A stretch of DNA of 9,984 nucleotides, taken from the IMG/VR virus record IMGVR_UViG_3300014515_000023, one strand, 5' to 3'. This stretch comes from a virus. Its lineage: Duplodnaviria; Heunggongvirae; Uroviricota; Caudoviricetes. Under the pieces are notes generated by a model that saw only the letters and a list, made by a program, of their open reading frames with translations, ran no database searches and was not told where the DNA came from. The stretch's first letter is position 1; the number at the start of each line of letters is the position of its first letter. Positions 1 to 6,386 of this stretch are shown one piece after another. A program made the translations under genes and the position numbers.

Positions 1-83
1 AACCTGAGGAGTAAGAGACCTGGCGGGGGAGAAATCCCTCGCCACCTCTGATGAGTCAGGCATCCTCAATGCACCCGCGCTTA

Positions 84-103
84 ACCCGCTTCGGCGGGTT
101 TTT
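84..103 (+). terminator. Rho-independent terminator hairpin upstream of the cassette
   Basis: Stem CCCGC (85-89), loop TTCG, stem GCGGG (94-98), followed by T5 (99-103). It is a near-identical direct copy of the hairpin at 1949-1968. Confidence 0.6.
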
Positions 104-118
104 CTAGCATCTATCTGG

Positions 119-147
119 TTGACAAAGTCTATGTTAAATGGAAATAT
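119..147 (+). promoter_or_regulatory. Putative sigma70 promoter for the two-gene cassette
   Basis: Perfect -35 TTGACA at 119-124, 17-nt spacer, weak -10-like AAATAT at 142-147. A second GGTTGACA lies at 148-155. RBS AAGGA at 166-170 sits about 10 nt before the ATG at 181. The -10 is weak, so this is tentative. Confidence 0.3.
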
Positions 148-180
148 GGTTGACACCAAAACAACAAGGATATTACGGTC

Positions 181-795
181 ATGCAGAATTTATCTCAACA
201 GTTGTTAGAAGCATATGACAAGGAGTGCCGCAAAGAGCTTTCGATCGCGTTAGCACAGGCTTATCTTCATTCGCATATGAAGGCAAAAGAGTTTGGTTCT
301 TTTTGGGCTCAAGCACAGTCATATTTGCGCTGGTTTTATGCCGATGCATTGCTTGAGAATGCGGCTAAGCGTGTGGGGCTGGATTTTGAAGTCGGTAGCA
401 ATGCTGCTAAAAATTGTAAACACATTGCGATTCACTCGAACAACTGGAAAATGACGGCACATCATTTATCGGGTAATGCGCCACTTCCTAAGCAGGCATT
501 GTATAGAGCTGTTTACGCTAATCAAAATTATGAATTGAATTTTGGGGATGAAAATGCCGACTCCCTGGATGGGAGAGCGTCTGGTGGACATGTTTATATG
601 TTACATGATGGCAGTAATCAGCACTTGTCCAAACTGAATTTAACTGTTCCTTCTTCGGATAATTACGGGATTCTTTATACTGAGTCTTTACCAATTATGA
701 CGATGGTAGAAGTTGAAGCAGAAAATGTGGATTCTGAGATTGAAGATAAAATCAAGATTCTTACCGAACAAATAATTAAATCACAGCAATCATGA
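181..795 (+). CDS. Hypothetical protein, 204 aa, first gene of the cassette; no domain recognised
   Basis: Clean ORF with an RBS and an upstream promoter-like site. Its stop TGA (793-795) overlaps the ATG (792-794) of the next gene, which suggests translational coupling. AT-richer than the flanking phage genes by eye. Acidic C-terminal tail. I recognise no catalytic motif. Confidence 0.75.
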   Translation: MQNLSQQLLEAYDKECRKELSIALAQAYLHSHMKAKEFGSFWAQAQSYLRWFYADALLENAAKRVGLDFEVGSNAAKNCKHIAIHSNNWKMTAHHLSGNAPLPKQALYRAVYANQNYELNFGDENADSLDGRASGGHVYMLHDGSNQHLSKLNLTVPSSDNYGILYTESLPIMTMVEVEAENVDSEIEDKIKILTEQIIKSQQS

Positions 796-1937
796 GCATG
801 AATATCGCACAAACACCATTTACTGATAAATCGTTTAATCCTCGTCGCCTTGAGGAGGCAAGAGAGGCAAAAGGGTTGACGATGGCTGAACTTGCCAGAG
901 TGCTCAATATTTCAAGACAAGCTATTTCGTCATTTGAGAAGGGGTTGAAGTCTCCCTCTGCTGATACACTTTCTGCAATAGCCAAGGTGTTAGGATTTCC
1001 AGAACGATTTTTCTTAGCCTCCAGTGCTTCTCCATCTCTGGAGGGGGCGATTCATTTTAGAAGTCGTTCAACTGCGACCAAAAAGGCTCGAGTTACAGGG
1101 AAAACACGTGGGCGTTGGGCGGCATTAATATTGGATGAATGTCTAAAATATGCTCAATTACCAGATGTGGTTCTGCCTGAATTCGATATTATTGATTTTG
1201 AGGTTCTGTCTCTATCTGATATTGAGGATATGTCCACCCAATTAAGGCGTTTTTGGGGGTTAGGTGATGGTCCAATACTCAATTTAACTAGACTTGTTGA
1301 AAATAAAGGAATCGTGGTTTCTCATTTACCTTCTGGTGAGAAAGTTGATGCCTTTTCGTTCTGGCATAATGGGCGGCCTTTAATTATGTTAGATAGCTCG
1401 AAGACGGCTGTTCGCATGCGATTTAGTCTTGCTCATGAACTTGGCCATTTAATTATGCATAGGGCAGTGGAGGATGACTACCTGAATGATAAAGAATTAT
1501 TCGACCTAGTGGAGTTGCAGGCCGATTATTTTGCCTCCAGCTTTTTAATGCCAGCCACGACTTTCGGGCGTGAATTTTATAGTCCAAATTTATCAGCGTT
1601 AGAACGATTAAAACTACGTTGGATTACATCTATCGGTAGTATTGCCATGAGGAGTCATAGCCTTAAGTTAATTAGCGATAATCAGAAAAGCTATATATTT
1701 AAGCAATTAGCGCCATTCCATCGTAGGGAGCCGTTAGATGATGCAATCCCAAAAGAAGAGCCTGAGTTACTTAATAAGTTACTTTTACTTCTTGATAAGC
1801 ATTCAATCATAAAGGTAACTGAGTTAACTGATATCTTTGCTCTTCCTTTAAATGAGTTATCTGCAATTACACGATTTAAAGAATCAGATATGATTCATTC
1901 TGACAATGTTATTTCATTTACCATAAAACAAAAATAA
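792..1937 (+). CDS. Fused XRE-family HTH and ImmA/IrrE-type (COG2856, peptidase M78-like) zinc metallopeptidase, 381 aa
   Basis: N-terminal segment (residues about 20-75, GLTMAELARVLNISRQAISSFEKG) matches the XRE/Cro-C1 helix-turn-helix pattern. HEXXH zinc motif HELGH at residues 215-219 (nt 1434-1448) sits in the context SLAHELGHLIMH typical of ImmA/IrrE peptidases. A C-terminal extension of about 150 aa has unknown function. Followed by a terminator. Confidence 0.85.
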   Translation: MSMNIAQTPFTDKSFNPRRLEEAREAKGLTMAELARVLNISRQAISSFEKGLKSPSADTLSAIAKVLGFPERFFLASSASPSLEGAIHFRSRSTATKKARVTGKTRGRWAALILDECLKYAQLPDVVLPEFDIIDFEVLSLSDIEDMSTQLRRFWGLGDGPILNLTRLVENKGIVVSHLPSGEKVDAFSFWHNGRPLIMLDSSKTAVRMRFSLAHELGHLIMHRAVEDDYLNDKELFDLVELQADYFASSFLMPATTFGREFYSPNLSALERLKLRWITSIGSIAMRSHSLKLISDNQKSYIFKQLAPFHRREPLDDAIPKEEPELLNKLLLLLDKHSIIKVTELTDIFALPLNELSAITRFKESDMIHSDNVISFTIKQK

Positions 1938-1948
1938 TTCTCATTCAT

Positions 1949-1968
1949 ACCCGCCTCGGCGGGTTTTT
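1949..1968 (+). terminator. Rho-independent terminator downstream of the cassette
   Basis: ACCCGCCTCGGCGGG followed by T5 then GTTTT. Differs by one nucleotide from the hairpin at 84-103. Confidence 0.6.
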
Positions 1969-2043
1969 GTTTTACGTATTCTGGTTTACAATCCACAGGC
2001 CAGCCTGAACAACTGGCACCTGCTGCGCCAGCAGAGACAACCG

Positions 2044-2322
2044 ATGGCGCACGATACCAAATTATACAATTCTGATGATTCTGCCGTCTTTGCCAGCAGG
2101 CGCGGACGGTGTTTTCACGCATTCAAATCTGACTGGTACCAGCATCCCCCATGCACTGAAGAACAGGCCGAATGGCTCATTCAGTGTTACCGCAGGCGCG
2201 GATGCGAGGTTAAAAAAGCCCTTAGCCTCGACTACCGTCACTGGATAATCTCCGTCAGGCTCCCTTACTCCGAACGGCCAGCGCGTCCGTCCCGCACATT
2301 CCAGCAACGGATCTGGAGGTAA
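2044..2322 (+). CDS. Hypothetical phage protein, 92 aa
   Basis: ORF in the same orientation as the operon. Its stop TAA (2320-2322) lies immediately before the GTG start (2324) of the next gene and overlaps that gene's GGAGG RBS. No strong RBS of its own; the reading frame stays open upstream through the terminator, so the true start is uncertain. Confidence 0.4.
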   Translation: MAHDTKLYNSDDSAVFASRRGRCFHAFKSDWYQHPPCTEEQAEWLIQCYRRRGCEVKKALSLDYRHWIISVRLPYSERPARPSRTFQQRIWR

Positions 2323-2323
2323 T

Positions 2324-3379
2324 GTGCGGGTATTACTTCGACCTGTTCTGGTACCGGAACTCGGTCTGGTTATCGTTAAGCCAGGCCGTGAATCAATGTC
2401 AGCATTCCATAACGGCAGAATACTGGTGGAGCCGGAACCAAAAAGCATGCGTAATCTGCCGTCCGGGGTCGTTCCTGCCGCTCGCCAGCCGCTGGTGGAA
2501 GACAAAACATTGCTGCCGTTTTTCAGTAACGCACGGGGGATTCGTGCTGCTGGTGGTGCTGGTGCATTGTCTGACTGGCTGTTGCGCCATATTAAATCCT
2601 GCCAGTGGCCACACGGCGATTATCATCACAGCGAAACCGTCATTCACCGTTATGGTACCGGCGCAATGGTGTTGTGCTGGCACTGCGACAACCAGCTGCG
2701 TGACCAGACATCCGAATCACTCGAGCAACTTGCTCATCAAAACCTGTCAGCATGGATGATTGACGTCATCGGTCACGCAATAAGCGGTACGCAGGAGCGT
2801 GAATTATCTCTGGCTGAATTATCCTGGTGGGCGGTCCGCAATCAGGTGGCGGACGCGCTACCGGAAGCGGTATTACGTCGTTCGCTGGGGTTGCGTGCGG
2901 AAAAAATCCGCTCAATGTACCGTGAAAGCGACATCGTACCGGGAGAGCAGACCGCCACCAGCATACTGAAGCAGCGCACAAAAAATCTTGCGCCGCTGCC
3001 TCACGCCCACCAGCAAAACCCGCCACAGGAAAAGACGGTGGTCAGCATTGCTGTTGATCCGGAGTCACCGGCTCAGTATCTCCAGCGCCAGAAACCACAA
3101 CGGGAAGAGATGCCTGTATACACGCGCTGGGTAAAAACGCAGAAATGCATGACGTGCGGTAATCAGGCAGATGATCCGCATCACATCATTGGTCATGGAC
3201 TGGGAGGGATGGGAACAAAGGCTGATGATTTGTTTGTTATTCCGCTGTGCCGTAAATGTCATAACGAACTGCACGCCGGGGTAAAAGATTTTGAAGAAAA
3301 ACACGGCAGCCAGCTGTTGTTGCTGATTCGTTTTTTAATGCACGCGAGAAATTCGGGTGTCCTGAAGTGGAAAGCATGA
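2324..3379 (+). CDS. DUF968-like (YdfU-like) prophage protein with two Cys/His-rich clusters, 351 aa
   Basis: GTG start preceded by GGAGG (2310-2314). C-terminal cluster C275-x2-C278, H286-H287, H291, C309-x2-C312-H313, H317 (nt about 3146-3274). N-terminal cluster C93, H97, HH101-102, C118-WH-C121. Sits immediately upstream of rusA. The family call is from memory of Qin-prophage YdfU. Confidence 0.65.
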   Translation: MRVLLRPVLVPELGLVIVKPGRESMSAFHNGRILVEPEPKSMRNLPSGVVPAARQPLVEDKTLLPFFSNARGIRAAGGAGALSDWLLRHIKSCQWPHGDYHHSETVIHRYGTGAMVLCWHCDNQLRDQTSESLEQLAHQNLSAWMIDVIGHAISGTQERELSLAELSWWAVRNQVADALPEAVLRRSLGLRAEKIRSMYRESDIVPGEQTATSILKQRTKNLAPLPHAHQQNPPQEKTVVSIAVDPESPAQYLQRQKPQREEMPVYTRWVKTQKCMTCGNQADDPHHIIGHGLGGMGTKADDLFVIPLCRKCHNELHAGVKDFEEKHGSQLLLLIRFLMHARNSGVLKWKA

Positions 3380-3745
3380 ATGACTGAACGCATAGAATTT
3401 GTTTTGCCTTACCCGCCAACGGTGAACACTTACTGGCGACGTCGTGGCAGCACATATTTTGTATCAAAAGTCGGTGAGCGTTATCGCCGTGATGTGGCGC
3501 TTATTGTTCGCCAGCAGCAACTGAAATTAAACCTGTCCGGAAGGCCGGCAATAGAAATTATTGCAGAGCCACCGGATAAGCGCCGTCGTGACCTGGACAA
3601 TATCCTGAAGGCACCACTGGATGTACTGACGCATGCGGGGCTGCTCATAGACGACGAGCAGTTTGATGAAATTAATATTGTGCGCGGTCAGCTTGTTCCT
3701 GGTGGGCGGTTGGGGATAAAAATCACAGAACTGGAGTACGCATGA
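3380..3745 (+). CDS. rusA: RusA-family Holliday junction resolvase, 121 aa
   Basis: Size and motifs match E. coli RusA as recalled: LPYPPTVNTYWRRRG near the N-terminus, the catalytic-region RRRDLDNILKAPLDVL, and GGRLGIKITE near the C-terminus. Stop overlaps the next gene's start (ATGA at 3742-3745). Confidence 0.9.
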   Translation: MTERIEFVLPYPPTVNTYWRRRGSTYFVSKVGERYRRDVALIVRQQQLKLNLSGRPAIEIIAEPPDKRRRDLDNILKAPLDVLTHAGLLIDDEQFDEINIVRGQLVPGGRLGIKITELEYA

Positions 3746-4431
3746 ATAACCAGTATTTACAGTTTGTTCGTGAGCAACTCATGATTGCCACCGCCGATTT
3801 GAGTGGATCAACAAAAGGGCAGCTTGAGGCCTGGCAGGAGAATGCCATGTTTGATACAGGGCGTTACAGGCGTAAAAAAATCCGGTACCGCGATGAAGTG
3901 ACTGGAAAAATGATAACGCGGGATAATCCACCAATCCCGGGAAAGCAATCGCTGGCGAAGGGGGTGTCAATTCCTCTCGTCAGTCCGGTTGAGTTTTCGA
4001 CATCATCGTGGCGGCGGGCTGTTCTGTCTCTTGAAGAACATCATAAAGCCTGGTTGTTGTGGTGTTACAGCGGGAGTATTTGTTGGGAATATCAGATCGC
4101 GATAACGCAGTGGGTGTGGAATGAATTTAAAACCCGGTACGGCACCAGAAAAATTGCAGGGAAAACGCAGGAGCGCGTGAAGAAGTTGATCTGGCTGGCG
4201 GCACAGGATGTCAGAGGATGGATTACCGGGTGTGAGGTCTACCAGAGACAGGAGCTTGCCAGACTGTGTGGAGTTAAGCCTGATAACTGGAGCCATAATT
4301 ATGCGAACTACTGGCGTGAGATGTGCGATATTTTTAAGAGTCTCGATAGAGAATCTGTGATTTGCACCGTGAAAATAAGAGCGCAACAAAAAGCGACTTT
4401 TTCACGACGAGATATTGCAAAAGTCAATTAA
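3742..4431 (+). CDS. Putative late-gene antiterminator Q (phage 82/Qin quuQ-like class), 229 aa
   Basis: Position is canonical: immediately after rusA and immediately before a promoter-like region plus a short-transcript terminator. Translationally coupled to rusA. The family assignment is by synteny and recollection, not by a motif I can verify. Confidence 0.55.
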   Translation: MNNQYLQFVREQLMIATADLSGSTKGQLEAWQENAMFDTGRYRRKKIRYRDEVTGKMITRDNPPIPGKQSLAKGVSIPLVSPVEFSTSSWRRAVLSLEEHHKAWLLWCYSGSICWEYQIAITQWVWNEFKTRYGTRKIAGKTQERVKKLIWLAAQDVRGWITGCEVYQRQELARLCGVKPDNWSHNYANYWREMCDIFKSLDRESVICTVKIRAQQKATFSRRDIAKVN

Positions 4432-4452
4432 ATAGCGTACGTTTCGTATAAA
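4415..4452 (+). promoter_or_regulatory. Candidate late promoter (PR'-like) / Q-utilisation region
   Basis: TTGCAA at 4415-4420 and -10-like TATAAA at 4447-4452 lie directly downstream of the Q stop and about 50-70 nt upstream of a strong terminator, analogous to lambda PR'-tR'. The spacing is non-ideal, so this is tentative. Confidence 0.3.
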
Positions 4453-4492
4453 TCTGATATTTTGCCGATTTTGTACGCGATGGCAAAGTAAG

Positions 4493-4523
4493 AAAAAAAA
4501 CTGCCGTCAGGCGGTTTTTTTTT
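4493..4523 (+). terminator. Intrinsic terminator (tR'-like), potentially bidirectional
   Basis: A8 (4493-4500), stem CTGCC (4501-4505), loop GTCA, stem GGCGG (4510-4514), T9 (4515-4523). Confidence 0.65.
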
Positions 4524-4645
4524 ATGCCCAAAATCGCGTCAGTACAGTAAACACGCTGGTGGTTGCGAATACGGGTCTTTCAGCTTGCTGGCTTTTTCGA
4601 CAAGAGTTATTGGTATGTCACGTTAACCGGAAAAAGGAAAAAGAC

Positions 4646-4843
4646 ATGCTAAAACAGCAGGATATGACAGAAACCGCCAGAGTGGTGTTTAATGAATTAA
4701 GCGTTACCGAACCGGCGACAGTCGGGGAGATAGCGCAGAATACTTACCTTTCACGCGAACGCTGCCAGTTAATACTGACCCAGCTGGTTATGGCGGGGGG
4801 GGCAGACTATCAGTTCGGTTGTTACAGACGCCTTCAGTCCTGA
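4646..4843 (+). CDS. Small hypothetical protein, about 65 aa, possible HTH/winged-helix DNA-binding protein
   Basis: ATG at 4646 preceded by AAGGAAAAAG RBS. This is the in-frame internal start of track ORF 4559..4843. The segment TVGEIAQNTYLSRERCQLILTQL resembles a helix-turn-helix. Sits between tR' and the methyltransferase. Confidence 0.45.
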   Translation: MLKQQDMTETARVVFNELSVTEPATVGEIAQNTYLSRERCQLILTQLVMAGGADYQFGCYRRLQS

Positions 4844-4993
4844 AGGCTTTTTTATTTGTGGTAAATGGGCGGCTGGTGGGTGTTAGGGGCACCCACCAGC
4901 CATCTGCTCATGCGTTGGGTTCACAAGCAAACCTCAGGCCCACTGCTTTGCGCAAAAGCAGAATGAGCCTATCAGAGACAGGCTTAATGATCC

Positions 4994-6043
4994 ATGCTTA
5001 ATACTGTAAAAATATCCAGTTGTGAGTTAATCAACGCCGACTGCCTGGAATTTATCCGGTCGTTACCCGAAAATTCTGTTGACCTGATAGTCACGGACCC
5101 GCCGTACTTTAAAGTGAAGCCTGAGGGCTGGGATAACCAGTGGAAGGGCGACGATGATTACCTGAAGTGGCTGGACCAGTGTCTGGCGCAGTTCTGGCGG
5201 GTGCTGAAACCTGTCGGAAGTCTTTACCTGTTCTGTGGTCATCGCCTGGCATCTGATATCGAAATCATGATGCGTGAACGCTTCAGTGTGCTGAACCATA
5301 TTATCTGGGCGAAGCCGTCCGGACGCTGGAACGGATGCAACAAGGAAAGCCTGCGGGCGTATTTCCCCGCCACAGAGCGCATTCTGTTCGCGGAACATTA
5401 TCAGGGGCCGTATCGTCCGAAAGATGCCGGGTATGCGGCGAAGGGCAGTGCACTGAAACAGCATGTGATGGCCCCGCTGATTTCTTACTTTCGTGATGCG
5501 CGCGCTGCCCTGGGGATAACGGCAAAACAGATTGCAGATGCCACAGGAAAGAAAAACATGGTGTCGCACTGGTTCAGTGCCAGTCAGTGGCAGCTACCGA
5601 ACGAAAGCGATTATCTGAAATTACAGTCGCTGTTTGCCCGGGTGGCAGAAGAGAAACATCAGCGCGGTGAACTGGAAAAGCCCCACCACCAGCTGGTGGA
5701 TACGTATACGTCACTGAACCGGCAGTATGTGGAGCTGCAGAGTGAATATAAGCATCTGCGGCGGTATTTTGGTGTGACGGCGCAGGTGCCGTACACGGAT
5801 GTGTGGACACATAAACCGGTGCAGTTCTATCCCGGGAAACATCCGTGCGAAAAACCGGCAGAAATGCTGCAGCAGATAATCAGCGCAAGCAGTCGTCCGG
5901 GTGACCTGGTTGCAGATTTTTTTATGGGCTCAGGTTCAACGGTAAAAGCGGCACTGGCGCTTGGGCGTCGTGCGATTGGCGTTGAACTGGAGACCGGACG
6001 TTTTGAGCAGACAGTCAGGGAAGTTCAGGATTTAATCGTTTGA
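4994..6043 (+). CDS. DNA N6-adenine or N4-cytosine methyltransferase, beta-class motif order, apparently orphan, 349 aa
   Basis: Motif IV DPPY at residues 35-38 (nt 5096-5107) in the context SVDLIVTDPPYF. SAM-binding motif I FxGxG (FFMGSGST) at residues 309-316 (nt 5918-5941). Motif IV before motif I is the beta-class order. No restriction-endonuclease-like ORF is adjacent. Confidence 0.9.
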   Translation: MLNTVKISSCELINADCLEFIRSLPENSVDLIVTDPPYFKVKPEGWDNQWKGDDDYLKWLDQCLAQFWRVLKPVGSLYLFCGHRLASDIEIMMRERFSVLNHIIWAKPSGRWNGCNKESLRAYFPATERILFAEHYQGPYRPKDAGYAAKGSALKQHVMAPLISYFRDARAALGITAKQIADATGKKNMVSHWFSASQWQLPNESDYLKLQSLFARVAEEKHQRGELEKPHHQLVDTYTSLNRQYVELQSEYKHLRRYFGVTAQVPYTDVWTHKPVQFYPGKHPCEKPAEMLQQIISASSRPGDLVADFFMGSGSTVKAALALGRRAIGVELETGRFEQTVREVQDLIV

Positions 6044-6092
6044 AACGGATGAGATTGCAGAATTAATTACGCACCATTATTATTCTGCTCCC

Positions 6093-6168
6093 GGCCCTTT
6101 AGCTCAGTGGTGAGAGCGAGCGACTCATAATCGCCAGGTCGCTGGTTCAAATCCAGCAAGGGCCACCA
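6093..6168 (+). tRNA. ileZ: tRNA-Ile2-like, anticodon CAU (lysidine type), 76 nt with encoded CCA
   Basis: Manual cloverleaf: acceptor GGCCCTT/AAGGGCC, D-arm GCTC-AGTGGTGA-GAGC, anticodon loop CTCATAA, T-loop TTCAAAT, then A-CCA. Closely resembles E. coli ileX as I recall it. A Met identity cannot be excluded from sequence alone. Confidence 0.85.
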
Positions 6169-6175
6169 TCACATA

Positions 6176-6252
6176 CCGCCATTAGCTCATCAGGAAAGAG
6201 CGCCAGCTTTCGAAGCTGGTTGCGCGGAGTTCGGGTCCCCGAAGGCGGTCCA
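6176..6252 (+). tRNA. tRNA-Arg, anticodon UCG, with non-canonical features
   Basis: Anticodon stem CCAGC/GCTGG is perfect with loop TTTCGAA (anticodon TCG). D-arm GCTC...GAGC. The acceptor stem has one A-A mismatch. The T stem has one A-C mismatch. The T-loop TTCGGGT has G at the usually invariant A58 position. Discriminator T, then CCA. Confidence 0.6.
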
Positions 6253-6265
6253 TTATCTGTATCCT

Positions 6266-6342
6266 GCGTTGTTAGCTCAGCCGGACAGAGCAATTGCCTT
6301 CTAAGCAATCGGTCACTGGTTCGAATCCAGTACAACGCGCCA
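6266..6342 (+). tRNA. tRNA-Arg, anticodon UCU, 77 nt with encoded CCA
   Basis: Perfect acceptor GCGTTGT/ACAACGC, anticodon loop CTTCTAA, T-loop TTCGAAT, discriminator G, CCA. Architecture is like E. coli argU. Confidence 0.85.
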
Positions 6343-6386
6343 CACTTATTTTCCCTGGCTCGCTTTTGCGGGCTTTTTTTAAATGT

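What the first reader, a model, noticed from the sequence alone, without database searches (positions are those of the whole stretch)
792..1937. Single-polypeptide fusion of XRE HTH and ImmA/IrrE peptidase with a 150-aa C-terminal extension
In the canonical ImmR/ImmA and IrrE/DdrO pairs as I understand them, the peptidase and its HTH repressor substrate are separate proteins. Here the HTH (residues about 20-75) and the HEXXH peptidase core (HELGH, nt 1434-1448) are fused, and an uncharacterised C-terminal region of about 150 aa follows. That region could be a sensor or partner-binding domain. The architecture suggests a switch that couples a signal to transcriptional or proteolytic control of the neighbouring gene.
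Basis: partly seen in the sequence, partly recalled or inferred. Interest (0 to 1): 0.55.

Follow-up and report, generated by a model that had tools for sequence, protein, structure and literature searches.

The report
Prophage RosmerTA toxin–antitoxin defence cassette
The fused DNA-binding/zinc-peptidase protein is real, but it is the known antitoxin (RmrA) of a RosmerTA toxin–antitoxin phage-defence pair, carried here with its upstream toxin gene as a small self-contained insert in an E. coli lambda-like prophage.

Summary
ORF 792-1937 encodes 381 aa with an XRE HTH (aa 20-73), an M78 peptidase domain (aa 170-287) and HELGH at nt 1434-1448.

Makarova 2009 reported that more than half of COG2856 peptidases are fused to Xre. 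This protein matches the PADLOC RmrA profile end to end (E=5.5e-102), C-terminal region included. It is 31% identical over 354 aa to the experimentally verified E. coli RmrA.

The upstream ORF (181-795, overlapping by ATGA) is a divergent RmrT toxin candidate. In 10 of 10 related loci, from E. coli to a Bacillus subtilis prophage, a homologue of it lies directly upstream of the RmrA gene.

The pair has its own promoter and terminator. It sits between two copies of the hokD terminator hairpin, in 41 of 5,426 complete E. coli genomes. About 2,600 genomes carry the uninterrupted site.

New here:
- Two GGTTGAC repeats about 31 bp apart bracket the -10 element and are conserved across 7 loci. They are a candidate RmrA operator.
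- The toxin family has a clamp-binding-like NxDLF loop.

Verdict: a new member of a known kind. The biochemical role of the peptidase is still unknown.

The parts
1..14 (+). 3' end of hokD (upstream prophage gene, not part of the cassette)
   Evidence: RefSeq annotation of the 100%-identical locus L002 places the hokD end 86 nt before window position 100; also seen in phage Tritos.
84..103 (+). Terminator hairpin plus T-run, copy 1 (hokD terminator); left boundary of the inserted cassette
   Evidence: 20-nt direct repeat with 1949-1968, 95% identical. The two flanks joined together match about 2,600 E. coli genomes as an uninterrupted site.
117..124 (+). GGTTGACA repeat 1, containing the -35 hexamer TTGACA (119-124); candidate operator half-site
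   Evidence: Conserved in the promoter alignment of 7 loci.
141..146 (+). -10-like element GAAATA (TAAAAT or TAAATA in relatives), 16 nt after the -35
   Evidence: Invariant G/AAA columns in alignment A4. The simple consensus scan did not call it.
148..155 (+). GGTTGACA repeat 2, 31 bp after repeat 1, just downstream of the -10 and over the expected transcription start; candidate operator half-site
   Evidence: A repeat pair at about 31 bp spacing is seen in 7 of 10 loci, including B. subtilis.
166..170 (+). Shine-Dalgarno-like AAGGA, 10 nt before the ORF1 start codon
   Evidence: Read from the sequence.
181..795 (+). ORF1, 204 aa: RmrT-type toxin candidate (RefSeq WP_001180546.1, 'hypothetical protein')
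   Evidence: PADLOC RmrT PDLC03933 E=7.5e-10; phrog_35814; no Pfam or NCBIfam hit. A homologue lies directly upstream of the RmrA gene in 10 of 10 loci. The B. subtilis homologue matches PDLC03933 at 4e-75.
526..543 (+). ORF1 aa 116-121, NYELNF: conserved N-x-[D/S]-L-F-type short motif in a low-confidence acidic loop; resembles a beta-clamp-binding motif (hypothesis)
   Evidence: N116 and F121 conserved in at least 90%. pLDDT <50 at aa 117-123. Motif survey across 40 family members.
792..1937 (+). ORF2, 381 aa: RmrA antitoxin (XRE HTH + M78 Zn-peptidase + helical C-terminal region), RefSeq WP_000062344.1. Its start overlaps the ORF1 stop (ATGA), suggesting translational coupling
849..1010 (+). 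XRE-type helix-turn-helix domain (aa 20-73)
1056..1061 (+). F89-R90 in the linker: R90 is invariant and lies in a short predicted beta-strand (aa 88-90). Candidate (pseudo)substrate or cleavage site (speculative)
   Evidence: An 'FR' is also present in the verified RmrA and in PDB 9vzy. DdrO is cut at L106-R107.
1299..1652 (+). Peptidase_M78 (ImmA/IrrE) domain (aa 170-287), with HELGH at 1434-1448 and E241 at 1512-1514
1578..1757 (+). C1: conserved helical subdomain (aa 263-322) with K274, W277, R287 and the E313-P314-x-D316 loop
1758..1901 (+). C2: variable but well-folded helical bundle (aa 323-370); candidate specificity or partner-binding module
1949..1968 (+). Intrinsic terminator, copy 2; right boundary of the cassette
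   Evidence: Terminator scan. Direct repeat with 84-103.

Best explanation
Nucleotides 104-1968 are a self-contained 'moron' (own promoter, two genes, own terminator) inserted at the hokD terminator of a lambdoid prophage. It encodes a RosmerTA-type toxin-antitoxin/abortive-infection module. ORF1 (204 aa) is the toxin RmrT and ORF2 (381 aa) is the antitoxin RmrA. Shown here: family membership of ORF2, the strictly conserved pairing and gene order, an intact peptidase site, and the insertion anatomy. Inferred mechanism: (i) The two genes are co-transcribed and translationally coupled through the ATGA overlap. (ii) The RmrA HTH binds the two GGTTGACA repeats that cover the -35 and the transcription start, and so represses the operon. 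(iii) RmrA keeps RmrT harmless after translation, using its zinc-peptidase domain and probably help from host ClpX/ClpP. This follows from clpP or clpX becoming essential in two related modules. (iv) Phage infection disturbs this balance through loss or inactivation of RmrA or shut-off of its synthesis. The freed toxin then stops the cell before the phage completes. The target of the toxin is unknown. A replication target (the DnaN clamp) is my preferred guess.
For: ORF2 matches all 14 PADLOC RmrA profiles. The best is PDLC03947, E=5.5e-102, covering aa 11-380. ORF2 is 31% identical over 354 aa (E=4e-41) to the RmrA of E. coli OLC-716, the system verified by Millman et al.. ORF1 hits RmrT profiles. 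Its B. subtilis homologue hits RmrT PDLC03933 at 4e-75, next to an RmrA that hits PDLC03947 at 8e-163. In 10 of 10 loci an ORF1-family gene (hmmsearch E from 1e-83 to 3e-15) lies immediately upstream of the RmrA gene, overlapping it or within a few bases. The catalytic residues H215, E216, H219 and E241 are conserved. Literature: rmrA cannot be deleted and the system defends against phage. Vmi480/Vmi470, with the same layout (198-aa toxin first, 362-aa HTH-Zn-peptidase second), is an experimentally verified toxin-antitoxin pair. A prophage module of this type makes clpP essential in E. coli E101. The pneumococcal Rosmer pair RipAB needs ClpX, and its toxin binds DnaN. Insertion: terminator duplication; the empty site in 2,626 genomes against the cassette in 41 of 5,426; GC about 0.40 against about 0.53 in the flanks; also present in phage Tritos. 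Operator: GGTTGACA occurs only twice in the window, and the repeat pair is conserved in 7 loci while the spacer sequence diverges.
Against: Nothing about this particular pair has been tested experimentally. ORF1 is unrelated to the verified RmrT of OLC-716 (hhalign probability 0.2%), and its own match to RmrT profiles is weak (7.5e-10). In the related PD-lambda-2 system, the Xre-peptidase protein itself was the toxic component, so the roles could be reversed. No paper in the library shows what the RmrA peptidase cleaves. One GGTTGACA copy is simply a consensus -35, and XRE proteins more often bind palindromes.
Confidence: 0.75

Rival explanations
1. A toxin-antitoxin/addiction module that mainly stabilises the prophage (post-segregational killing), or tunes host physiology as RipAB does for competence, with no real role in phage defence.
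For: The same architecture was first described simply as a toxin-antitoxin pair on a genomic island. RipAB is chromosomal and acts in competence signalling. The cassette lies next to hokD, another addiction-type toxin gene.
Against: RosmerTA systems from E. coli and from Gordonia phage Kita do protect against phages. Morons in prophage late and nin regions are typical sites for defence genes, and a paralogue occupies a second moron site. The two roles do not exclude each other.
Confidence: 0.15
2. Reversed roles: the HTH-peptidase (ORF2) is the toxic effector and ORF1 is its neutraliser, as reported for PD-lambda-2B and PD-lambda-2A.
For: Vassallo et al. found that the Xre-peptidase PD-lambda-2B was toxic alone and was rescued by the upstream protein. 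ORF2 has a weak hit to PD-Lambda-2_B (E=0.002).
Against: The PD-Lambda-2_B hit covers only the peptidase core and is about 100 orders of magnitude weaker than the RmrA hits. ORF1 is not HigB-like, and there is no third gene. For the same-layout pairs Vmi480/470, RipAB and OLC-716 RosmerTA, the upstream or small protein is the toxin and the HTH-peptidase is essential.
Confidence: 0.05
3. An ImmA/ImmR- or IrrE/DdrO-like stress switch. On DNA damage the protein cleaves itself between the HTH and the peptidase, de-repressing ORF1 or other prophage genes, without ORF1 being a toxin.
For: The M78 fold and catalytic residues are shared with ImmA, IrrE and CapP. An invariant R90 in an 'FR' motif sits in the linker. 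DdrO is cut at a Leu-Arg bond. An operator-like repeat lies in the promoter.
Against: The prophage's own immunity region (CI/Cro) is about 5 kb upstream and unrelated. The cassette is absent from most otherwise similar prophages. There is no GAF-like ssDNA-sensing domain, since the C-terminus is all helical. The strict co-inheritance with ORF1, and the essentiality of RmrA homologues, point to toxin neutralisation. Self-cleavage could still be one step of the toxin-antitoxin mechanism.
Confidence: 0.05

Closest known systems
RosmerTA (RmrT/RmrA), Millman et al. 2022; verified system from E. coli OLC-716
   Same: A two-gene operon with the toxin first. The antitoxin has an N-terminal XRE HTH, an M78 zinc-peptidase and the same helical C-terminal region. 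It is 31% identical over 354 aa and gives full-length RmrA profile matches.
   Different: The toxin is unrelated to the verified 239-aa RmrT. This pair belongs to the PDLC03933/PDLC03947 subtype and is a divergent enterobacterial branch of it. It has not been tested experimentally.
Vmi480/Vmi470 of Vibrio mimicus MGIVmi1 (Luo et al. 2015) and the E. coli E101 prophage module (Rousset et al. 2021)
   Same: A toxin of about 200 aa with no known domain lies upstream of a 360-380-aa HTH-Zn-peptidase antidote on a mobile element. The sizes and layout are the same as here.
   Different: Sequence relationship to ORF1 and ORF2 could not be tested. The E101 accessions (WP_001179380.1 and WP_000481765.1) differ from those of this locus (WP_001180546.1 and WP_000062344.1).
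RipAB (Spr1630/Spr1629) of Streptococcus pneumoniae, a Rosmer toxin-antitoxin pair
   Same: The antitoxin family is related: NCBIfam 'spr1629 family repressor/antitoxin' aligns over aa 15-364, 187 bits. The toxin gene is in the same operon. It gives a mechanistic precedent, since the toxin binds the DnaN pocket and neutralisation needs ClpX.
   Different: The score is below the equivalog cut-off (187 against 335 bits), so ORF2 is not an orthologue. RipAB is chromosomal and linked to competence. Homology between RipA and ORF1 is unknown.
ImmA/ImmR (ICEBs1), IrrE/DdrO (Deinococcus) and CapP/CapH (CBASS regulators)
   Same: The M78 fold and the HExxH...E site are shared. The HTH closely resembles those of ImmR, DdrO and CapH.
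   Different: In those systems the protease and the repressor are separate proteins, and the protease de-represses genes after DNA damage. IrrE and CapP carry a GAF-like ssDNA-binding domain. Here the two parts are fused, the C-terminus is helical, and the partner is a toxin.
PD-lambda-2 (Vassallo et al. 2022)
   Same: It contains an Xre-peptidase fusion encoded after a toxin-like gene, and it defends E. coli against phage.
   Different: It has three genes (a HigB-like protein, the Xre-peptidase and a P4-antitoxin-like protein), and the peptidase protein is the toxic one. ORF2 matches it only weakly (E=0.002).
SocAB of Caulobacter (toxin SocB blocks the beta clamp; antitoxin SocA hands it to ClpXP). 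Recalled from my own knowledge, not checked with the tools
   Same: It is a possible functional analogy: a clamp-directed toxin kept in check by proteolysis, which makes ClpXP essential.
   Different: No sequence relationship was tested. SocA is not an HTH-peptidase.

Membership tests
RosmerTA antitoxin RmrA | Full-length similarity to RmrA family profiles | tested here: met
   PDLC03947 E=5.5e-102, aa 11-380 against profile positions 7-381 of 383; all 14 RmrA models hit.
RosmerTA antitoxin RmrA | Similarity to an experimentally verified RmrA | tested here: met
   31% identity over 354 aa, E=4e-41, to the RmrA of E. coli OLC-716.
RosmerTA antitoxin RmrA | N-terminal XRE HTH plus an M78 zinc-peptidase with an intact HExxH...E site | tested here: met
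   Pfam HTH_3 and Peptidase_M78. H215 and E216 are invariant; H219 and E241 are conserved in at least 90%.
RosmerTA system | Adjacent co-oriented toxin gene (RmrT) forming a two-gene operon | tested here: met
   ORF1 overlaps ORF2 by 4 nt. RmrT profile hits. Pairing conserved in 10 of 10 loci. The B. subtilis homologue matches RmrT PDLC03933 at 4e-75.
RosmerTA system | Toxin similar to the verified RmrT of OLC-716 | tested here: not met
   hhalign probability 0.2%. RosmerTA toxins are described as diverse, so this does not exclude membership.
RosmerTA system | Toxicity of RmrT, neutralisation by RmrA, and protection against phage | not testable with these tools
   Needs expression and plaque assays.
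ImmA/IrrE-type anti-repressor protease paired with a separate repressor | M78 fold and catalytic motif | tested here: met
ImmA/IrrE-type anti-repressor protease paired with a separate repressor | A separate XRE repressor substrate encoded next to the protease | tested here: not met
   The HTH is fused. The neighbours are ORF1 (no HTH) and an unrelated 92-aa ORF.
IrrE/CapP subgroup | C-terminal GAF-like (ssDNA-binding) domain | tested here: not met
spr1629/RipB family (NCBIfam NF052239, equivalog) | Score above the curated cut-off (335 bits) | tested here: not met
   187 bits. The B. subtilis relative also scores below the cut-off, at 246 bits. The family is related but ORF2 is not a member.
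PD-lambda-2 | Three-gene system: HigB-like A, Xre-peptidase B, P4-antitoxin-like C | tested here: not met
   Only a weak partial hit to B (E=0.002). ORF1 is not HigB-like and there is no third gene.
PrpR/RamB (HTH + M78-like) metabolic regulators | Full-length similarity, including the C-terminal domain | tested here: not met
PD-(D/E)xK nuclease superfamily (for ORF1) | Restriction-endonuclease-like fold with a conserved D...(D/E)xK catalytic motif | tested here: inconclusive

The most novel reading that the evidence does not exclude
The ORF1 toxin family is a clamp-directed effector. It has a restriction-endonuclease-like core carrying a conserved, disordered N-[Y/L]-[D/S]-L-F loop (NYELNF here). 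This loop docks into the hydrophobic pocket of the DnaN sliding clamp, as the pneumococcal Rosmer toxin RipA does. RmrA controls the toxin at two levels: operator binding at the conserved 31-bp-spaced GGTTGAC repeats, and peptidase- and ClpXP-assisted removal of the toxin. That would give a first concrete mechanism for one RosmerTA lineage conserved from Enterobacteria to Bacillus.
Probability: 0.2. Interest if true: 0.6.

Novelty: new member of a known kind. Interest (0 to 1): 0.3.

Why it matters
RosmerTA is widespread, but its mechanism is unresolved. It is not known what the antitoxin's peptidase cleaves, what triggers the system, or what most of its toxins do. This locus is an easily handled E. 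coli prophage example of about 1.9 kb with its own promoter and terminator. It offers three testable handles: a conserved candidate operator, an intact catalytic site, and a conserved short motif in the toxin that suggests the replication clamp as target. As a genome-scan finding it is ordinary. Current defence-system annotation tools would label it RosmerTA, and the fused architecture has been in the literature since 2009.

Tried and rejected
1. Identity with the Rousset E101 module. The RefSeq accessions at this locus and at the paralogous E. coli locus differ from WP_001179380.1 and WP_000481765.1. The link stays open.

2. Link to Vmi480. Cluster look-ups of ORF1 relatives gave no organism names. 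A genome-contig scan with alignment A2 failed for lack of a conserved stretch, and the scan with A3 found no relatives. A profile-seeded database search added almost nothing.

3. Homology of RipA to ORF1.

4. AlphaFold-database fold search for ORF1. The library was unavailable. Foldseek against the PDB found nothing significant.

5. Prophage master repressor or anti-repressor reading. Rejected, because CI/Cro lie elsewhere and the cassette is optional.

6. The consensus promoter scan did not call a + strand promoter at 104-180. The promoter assignment rests on the comparative alignment instead.

7. Other repeats in 1-2100 (inverted repeats I1-I3 and direct repeats D2-D3) look like chance matches and were not used.

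8. No paper mentions phage Tritos or PDB entry 9vzy.
Full report
**1. The observation**

The ORF at 792-1937 (+) exists and encodes 381 aa. Pfam places an XRE-type HTH_3 domain at aa 20-73 (E=2.4e-16) and a Peptidase_M78 (ImmA/IrrE) domain at aa 170-287 (E=9.7e-19). HELGH is aa 215-219, which is nt 1434-1448. In an alignment of 93 homologues at 32-88% identity, H215 and E216 are invariant. H219 and E241, the likely third zinc ligand, are conserved in at least 90% of sequences. E241 corresponds to E113 of IrrE, whose active site is H82/E83/H86/E113. The peptidase site is therefore under purifying selection and is not a relic.

The '150-aa extension' is counted from the HEXXH motif. Only about 94 aa (288-381) lie beyond the Pfam domain.

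**2. What the protein is**

- ORF2 matches all 14 PADLOC RmrA profiles. The best match is E=5.5e-102, covering aa 11-380 against profile positions 7-381 of 383.
- A phage protein family, phrog_2439, also matches over the full length.
- The sequence of the experimentally verified RosmerTA of E. coli OLC-716 is in the supplement of Millman et al.. Its RmrA is 31% identical to ORF2 over 354 aa (E=4e-41), and the alignment runs to residue 360. The C-terminal region is therefore part of the family, not an addition.
- A large-database search gave 1,213 homologues with E<=1e-10. All 120 listed carry the M78 domain, nearly all also the HTH, and most are about 350-420 aa.
- AlphaFold2 predicts one compact protein (pLDDT 91, pTM 0.89). 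It comprises the HTH, a linker with a short strand (88-90) and a long helix (97-118), the peptidase core, and an all-helical C-terminal part.
- Nothing solved covers the C-terminal part. The closest solved fusion is 9vzy, a 393-aa HTH+M78 protein that is only distantly related.
- Conservation divides the C-terminus in two. C1 (263-322) carries 2.35 bits per column, comparable with the HTH at 2.47 and the peptidase core at 2.54. It includes K274, W277, R287 and an E313-P314-x-D316 loop. C2 (323-370) carries 1.56 bits; it is variable but confidently folded.

**3. The premise of the finding**

The literature says otherwise.

- Makarova et al. 2009 reported that more than half of COG2856 domains are fused to Xre, and that many sit beside toxin genes in phages and plasmids.
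- Luo et al. 2015 verified Vmi480 (198-aa toxin, first gene) and Vmi470 (362-aa HTH-Zn-peptidase antidote) as a toxin-antitoxin pair.
- Millman et al. 2022 named the defence system RosmerTA and could not delete rmrA.
- Ernits et al. 2023 describe the ImmA domain as a hub antitoxin, often with an N-terminal HTH, and verified another RosmerTA from Gordonia phage Kita.
- Vassallo et al. 2022 found an Xre-peptidase fusion in PD-lambda-2.

**4. The partner gene**

ORF1 (181-795, 204 aa) ends inside the ORF2 start (ATGA at 792-795). It has no Pfam or NCBIfam match and belongs to phrog_35814. It hits PADLOC RmrT profiles weakly, the best at 7.5e-10. An exhaustive HMMER search of 1.8 billion representative proteins found only 44 relatives at E<=1e-3, almost all about 200 aa.

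I looked at the genomic neighbourhood of nine RmrA homologues spanning 37-70% identity to ORF2. Where the source records name the protein's organism, these are E. coli, Cronobacter, Yersinia, Providencia, B. subtilis and an uncultured Geminicoccaceae bacterium. In all nine, a gene of 195-217 aa with no Pfam hit lies directly upstream, overlapping the RmrA gene or within a few bases of it. All nine upstream proteins match a profile of the ORF1 family, with E from 9e-80 to 3e-15.

The B. subtilis pair is a textbook RosmerTA by PADLOC: RmrT PDLC03933 at 4e-75 and RmrA PDLC03947 at 8e-163. These are the same two models that give the best hits for ORF1 and ORF2. The window therefore carries a divergent enterobacterial branch of that subtype. 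The verified RmrT of OLC-716 is unrelated to ORF1, which fits the described diversity of Rosmer toxins.

**5. What ORF1 might do**

A second lead is a conserved N-[Y/L]-[D/S]-L-F segment followed by acidic residues. It lies in a loop of low confidence (pLDDT<50 at 117-123). The window has NYELNF, most relatives have NYDLF, and one has an exact QLSLF. This resembles the beta-clamp-binding motifs QL[S/D]LF and QLxLxL, which I recall from my own knowledge and did not test. The resemblance matters because the pneumococcal Rosmer toxin RipA binds the hydrophobic pocket of DnaN. Some distant members, including the B. subtilis protein, lack the motif. I could not test whether RipA is a homologue of ORF1.

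**6. The cassette and its context**

The window is the nin and late-regulatory region of a lambdoid prophage. In order it holds:
- the hokD 3' end (1-14)
- the cassette
- a DUF968/HNH gene (2324-3379)
- RusA
- antiterminator Q
- a DNA methyltransferase
- three tRNA genes
- a SASA-family esterase
- a P21-type holin

These assignments rest.

The cassette has GC of about 0.40, against about 0.53 in the flanks. It is bracketed by a 20-nt direct repeat of a terminator hairpin, at 84-103 and 1949-1968. Joining the two flanks in silico gives a sequence present at >=80% coverage in 2,626 of 5,426 complete E. coli genomes. The cassette itself is in 41 of them, and in phage Tritos. It is therefore an optional insertion with its own promoter and terminator.

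A paralogous pair, 55% and 66% identical, occupies another moron site after the methyltransferase and tRNA genes in other E. coli prophages. RmrA homologues occur in 26 phage records from many hosts.

**7. Regulation**

GGTTGACA occurs exactly twice in the window, at 117-124 and 148-155, 31 bp apart. The first copy contains the -35 hexamer. A -10-like GAAATA follows after 16 nt. The second copy begins 2 nt after the -10 and so covers the expected transcription start.

The same arrangement appears upstream of the toxin gene in seven loci, including B. subtilis. It consists of GTTG(A/C/T)C-type repeats about 31 bp apart bracketing a TAAAAT-like -10. In the alignment the repeats and the -10 are invariant, while the sequence between them has diverged.

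I read this as a promoter with two operator half-sites on the same face of the helix, bound by the RmrA HTH. This is inference. One copy is simply a good -35, XRE proteins usually bind palindromes, and the three most distant loci show looser patterns.

**8. Mechanism and its limits**

Family membership, gene pairing, the intact catalytic site and the insertion anatomy are shown here. That ORF1 is toxic, that ORF2 neutralises it, and that the pair defends against phage all follow from homologous systems and are likely. They have not been tested for this pair.

How the peptidase contributes is not known for any RosmerTA. Two independent studies show that a module of this type makes ClpP or ClpX essential: E. 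coli E101 and S. pneumoniae. The authors of the RipAB study suggest that ClpX helps RipB act on RipA, or presents RipA to it.

By analogy with DdrO, which IrrE cuts at L106-R107, the invariant R90 in an 'FR' motif of the RmrA linker could mark a self-cleavage site. This motif is also present in the verified RmrA and in 9vzy. I could not inspect the model coordinates, so this idea remains speculation.

**9. Verdict**

The finding is real, but it describes a known system. It is a new, untested member of RosmerTA, not a new architecture. The residual interest lies in three handles that could help to solve the Rosmer mechanism in an easy host: the conserved operator-like repeats, the strictly co-inherited toxin family, and its clamp-binding-like motif.

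Noticed in passing
window 84-103 and 1949-1968: A 20-nt direct repeat of the same terminator hairpin brackets the cassette. The uninterrupted hokD-terminator site is present in about 2,600 of 5,426 E. coli genomes, against 41 with the cassette. This looks like insertion by recombination at, or duplication of, the terminator.
   Followed up: yes
window 526-543 (ORF1 aa 116-121): A conserved N-x-[D/S]-L-F-type motif (NYELNF here, NYDLF in most relatives, QLSLF in one) lies in a disordered acidic loop of the toxin candidate. It resembles a beta-clamp-binding motif. The pneumococcal Rosmer toxin RipA binds the DnaN pocket.
   Followed up: partly
L005 2396-4152 / L011 1501-3257: A paralogous RmrT/RmrA pair (55% and 66% identical to ORF1 and ORF2) sits in other E. 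coli lambdoid prophages, directly after the methyltransferase and tRNA genes and before a TerB-domain gene. That is a different moron site, in the region where Stx phages carry stx as far as I recall.
   Followed up: partly
window 6093-6168: ARAGORN calls this tRNA-Met (anticodon CAT), but RefSeq annotates the identical gene as tRNA-Ile. It is presumably a lysidine-modified CAT isoleucine tRNA, as in the tRNA clusters of Stx-type phages. Two tRNA-Arg genes follow (TCG and TCT).
   Followed up: no
window 6343-7316: About 970 nt between the tRNA cluster and the SASA esterase gene has no long ORF. RefSeq marks only a small pseudogene fragment, at roughly 6596-6721 on the minus strand. It may be the remnant of a lost cargo gene at the position downstream of Q.
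   Followed up: no
window 3716-4517: The antiterminator Q region does not align with the APEC E19035 prophage, which is otherwise about 98-99% identical over 1-3715 and 4518-9792. The window carries a different Q allele (229 aa, Phage_antiter_Q). This is typical lambdoid mosaicism.
   Followed up: partly
window 1056-1061 (ORF2 aa 89-90): An 'FR' dipeptide with invariant R90 lies in a short predicted strand between the HTH and the peptidase. The same motif is present in the verified RmrA and in the distant solved fusion 9vzy. It is reminiscent of the Leu-Arg bond that IrrE cuts in DdrO.
   Followed up: partly
window 2044-2322: A 92-aa ORF immediately downstream of the cassette matches phrog_1212 (unknown function) and has no Pfam hit. 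It is also present at the empty site, so it belongs to the prophage backbone and not to the cassette.
   Followed up: no
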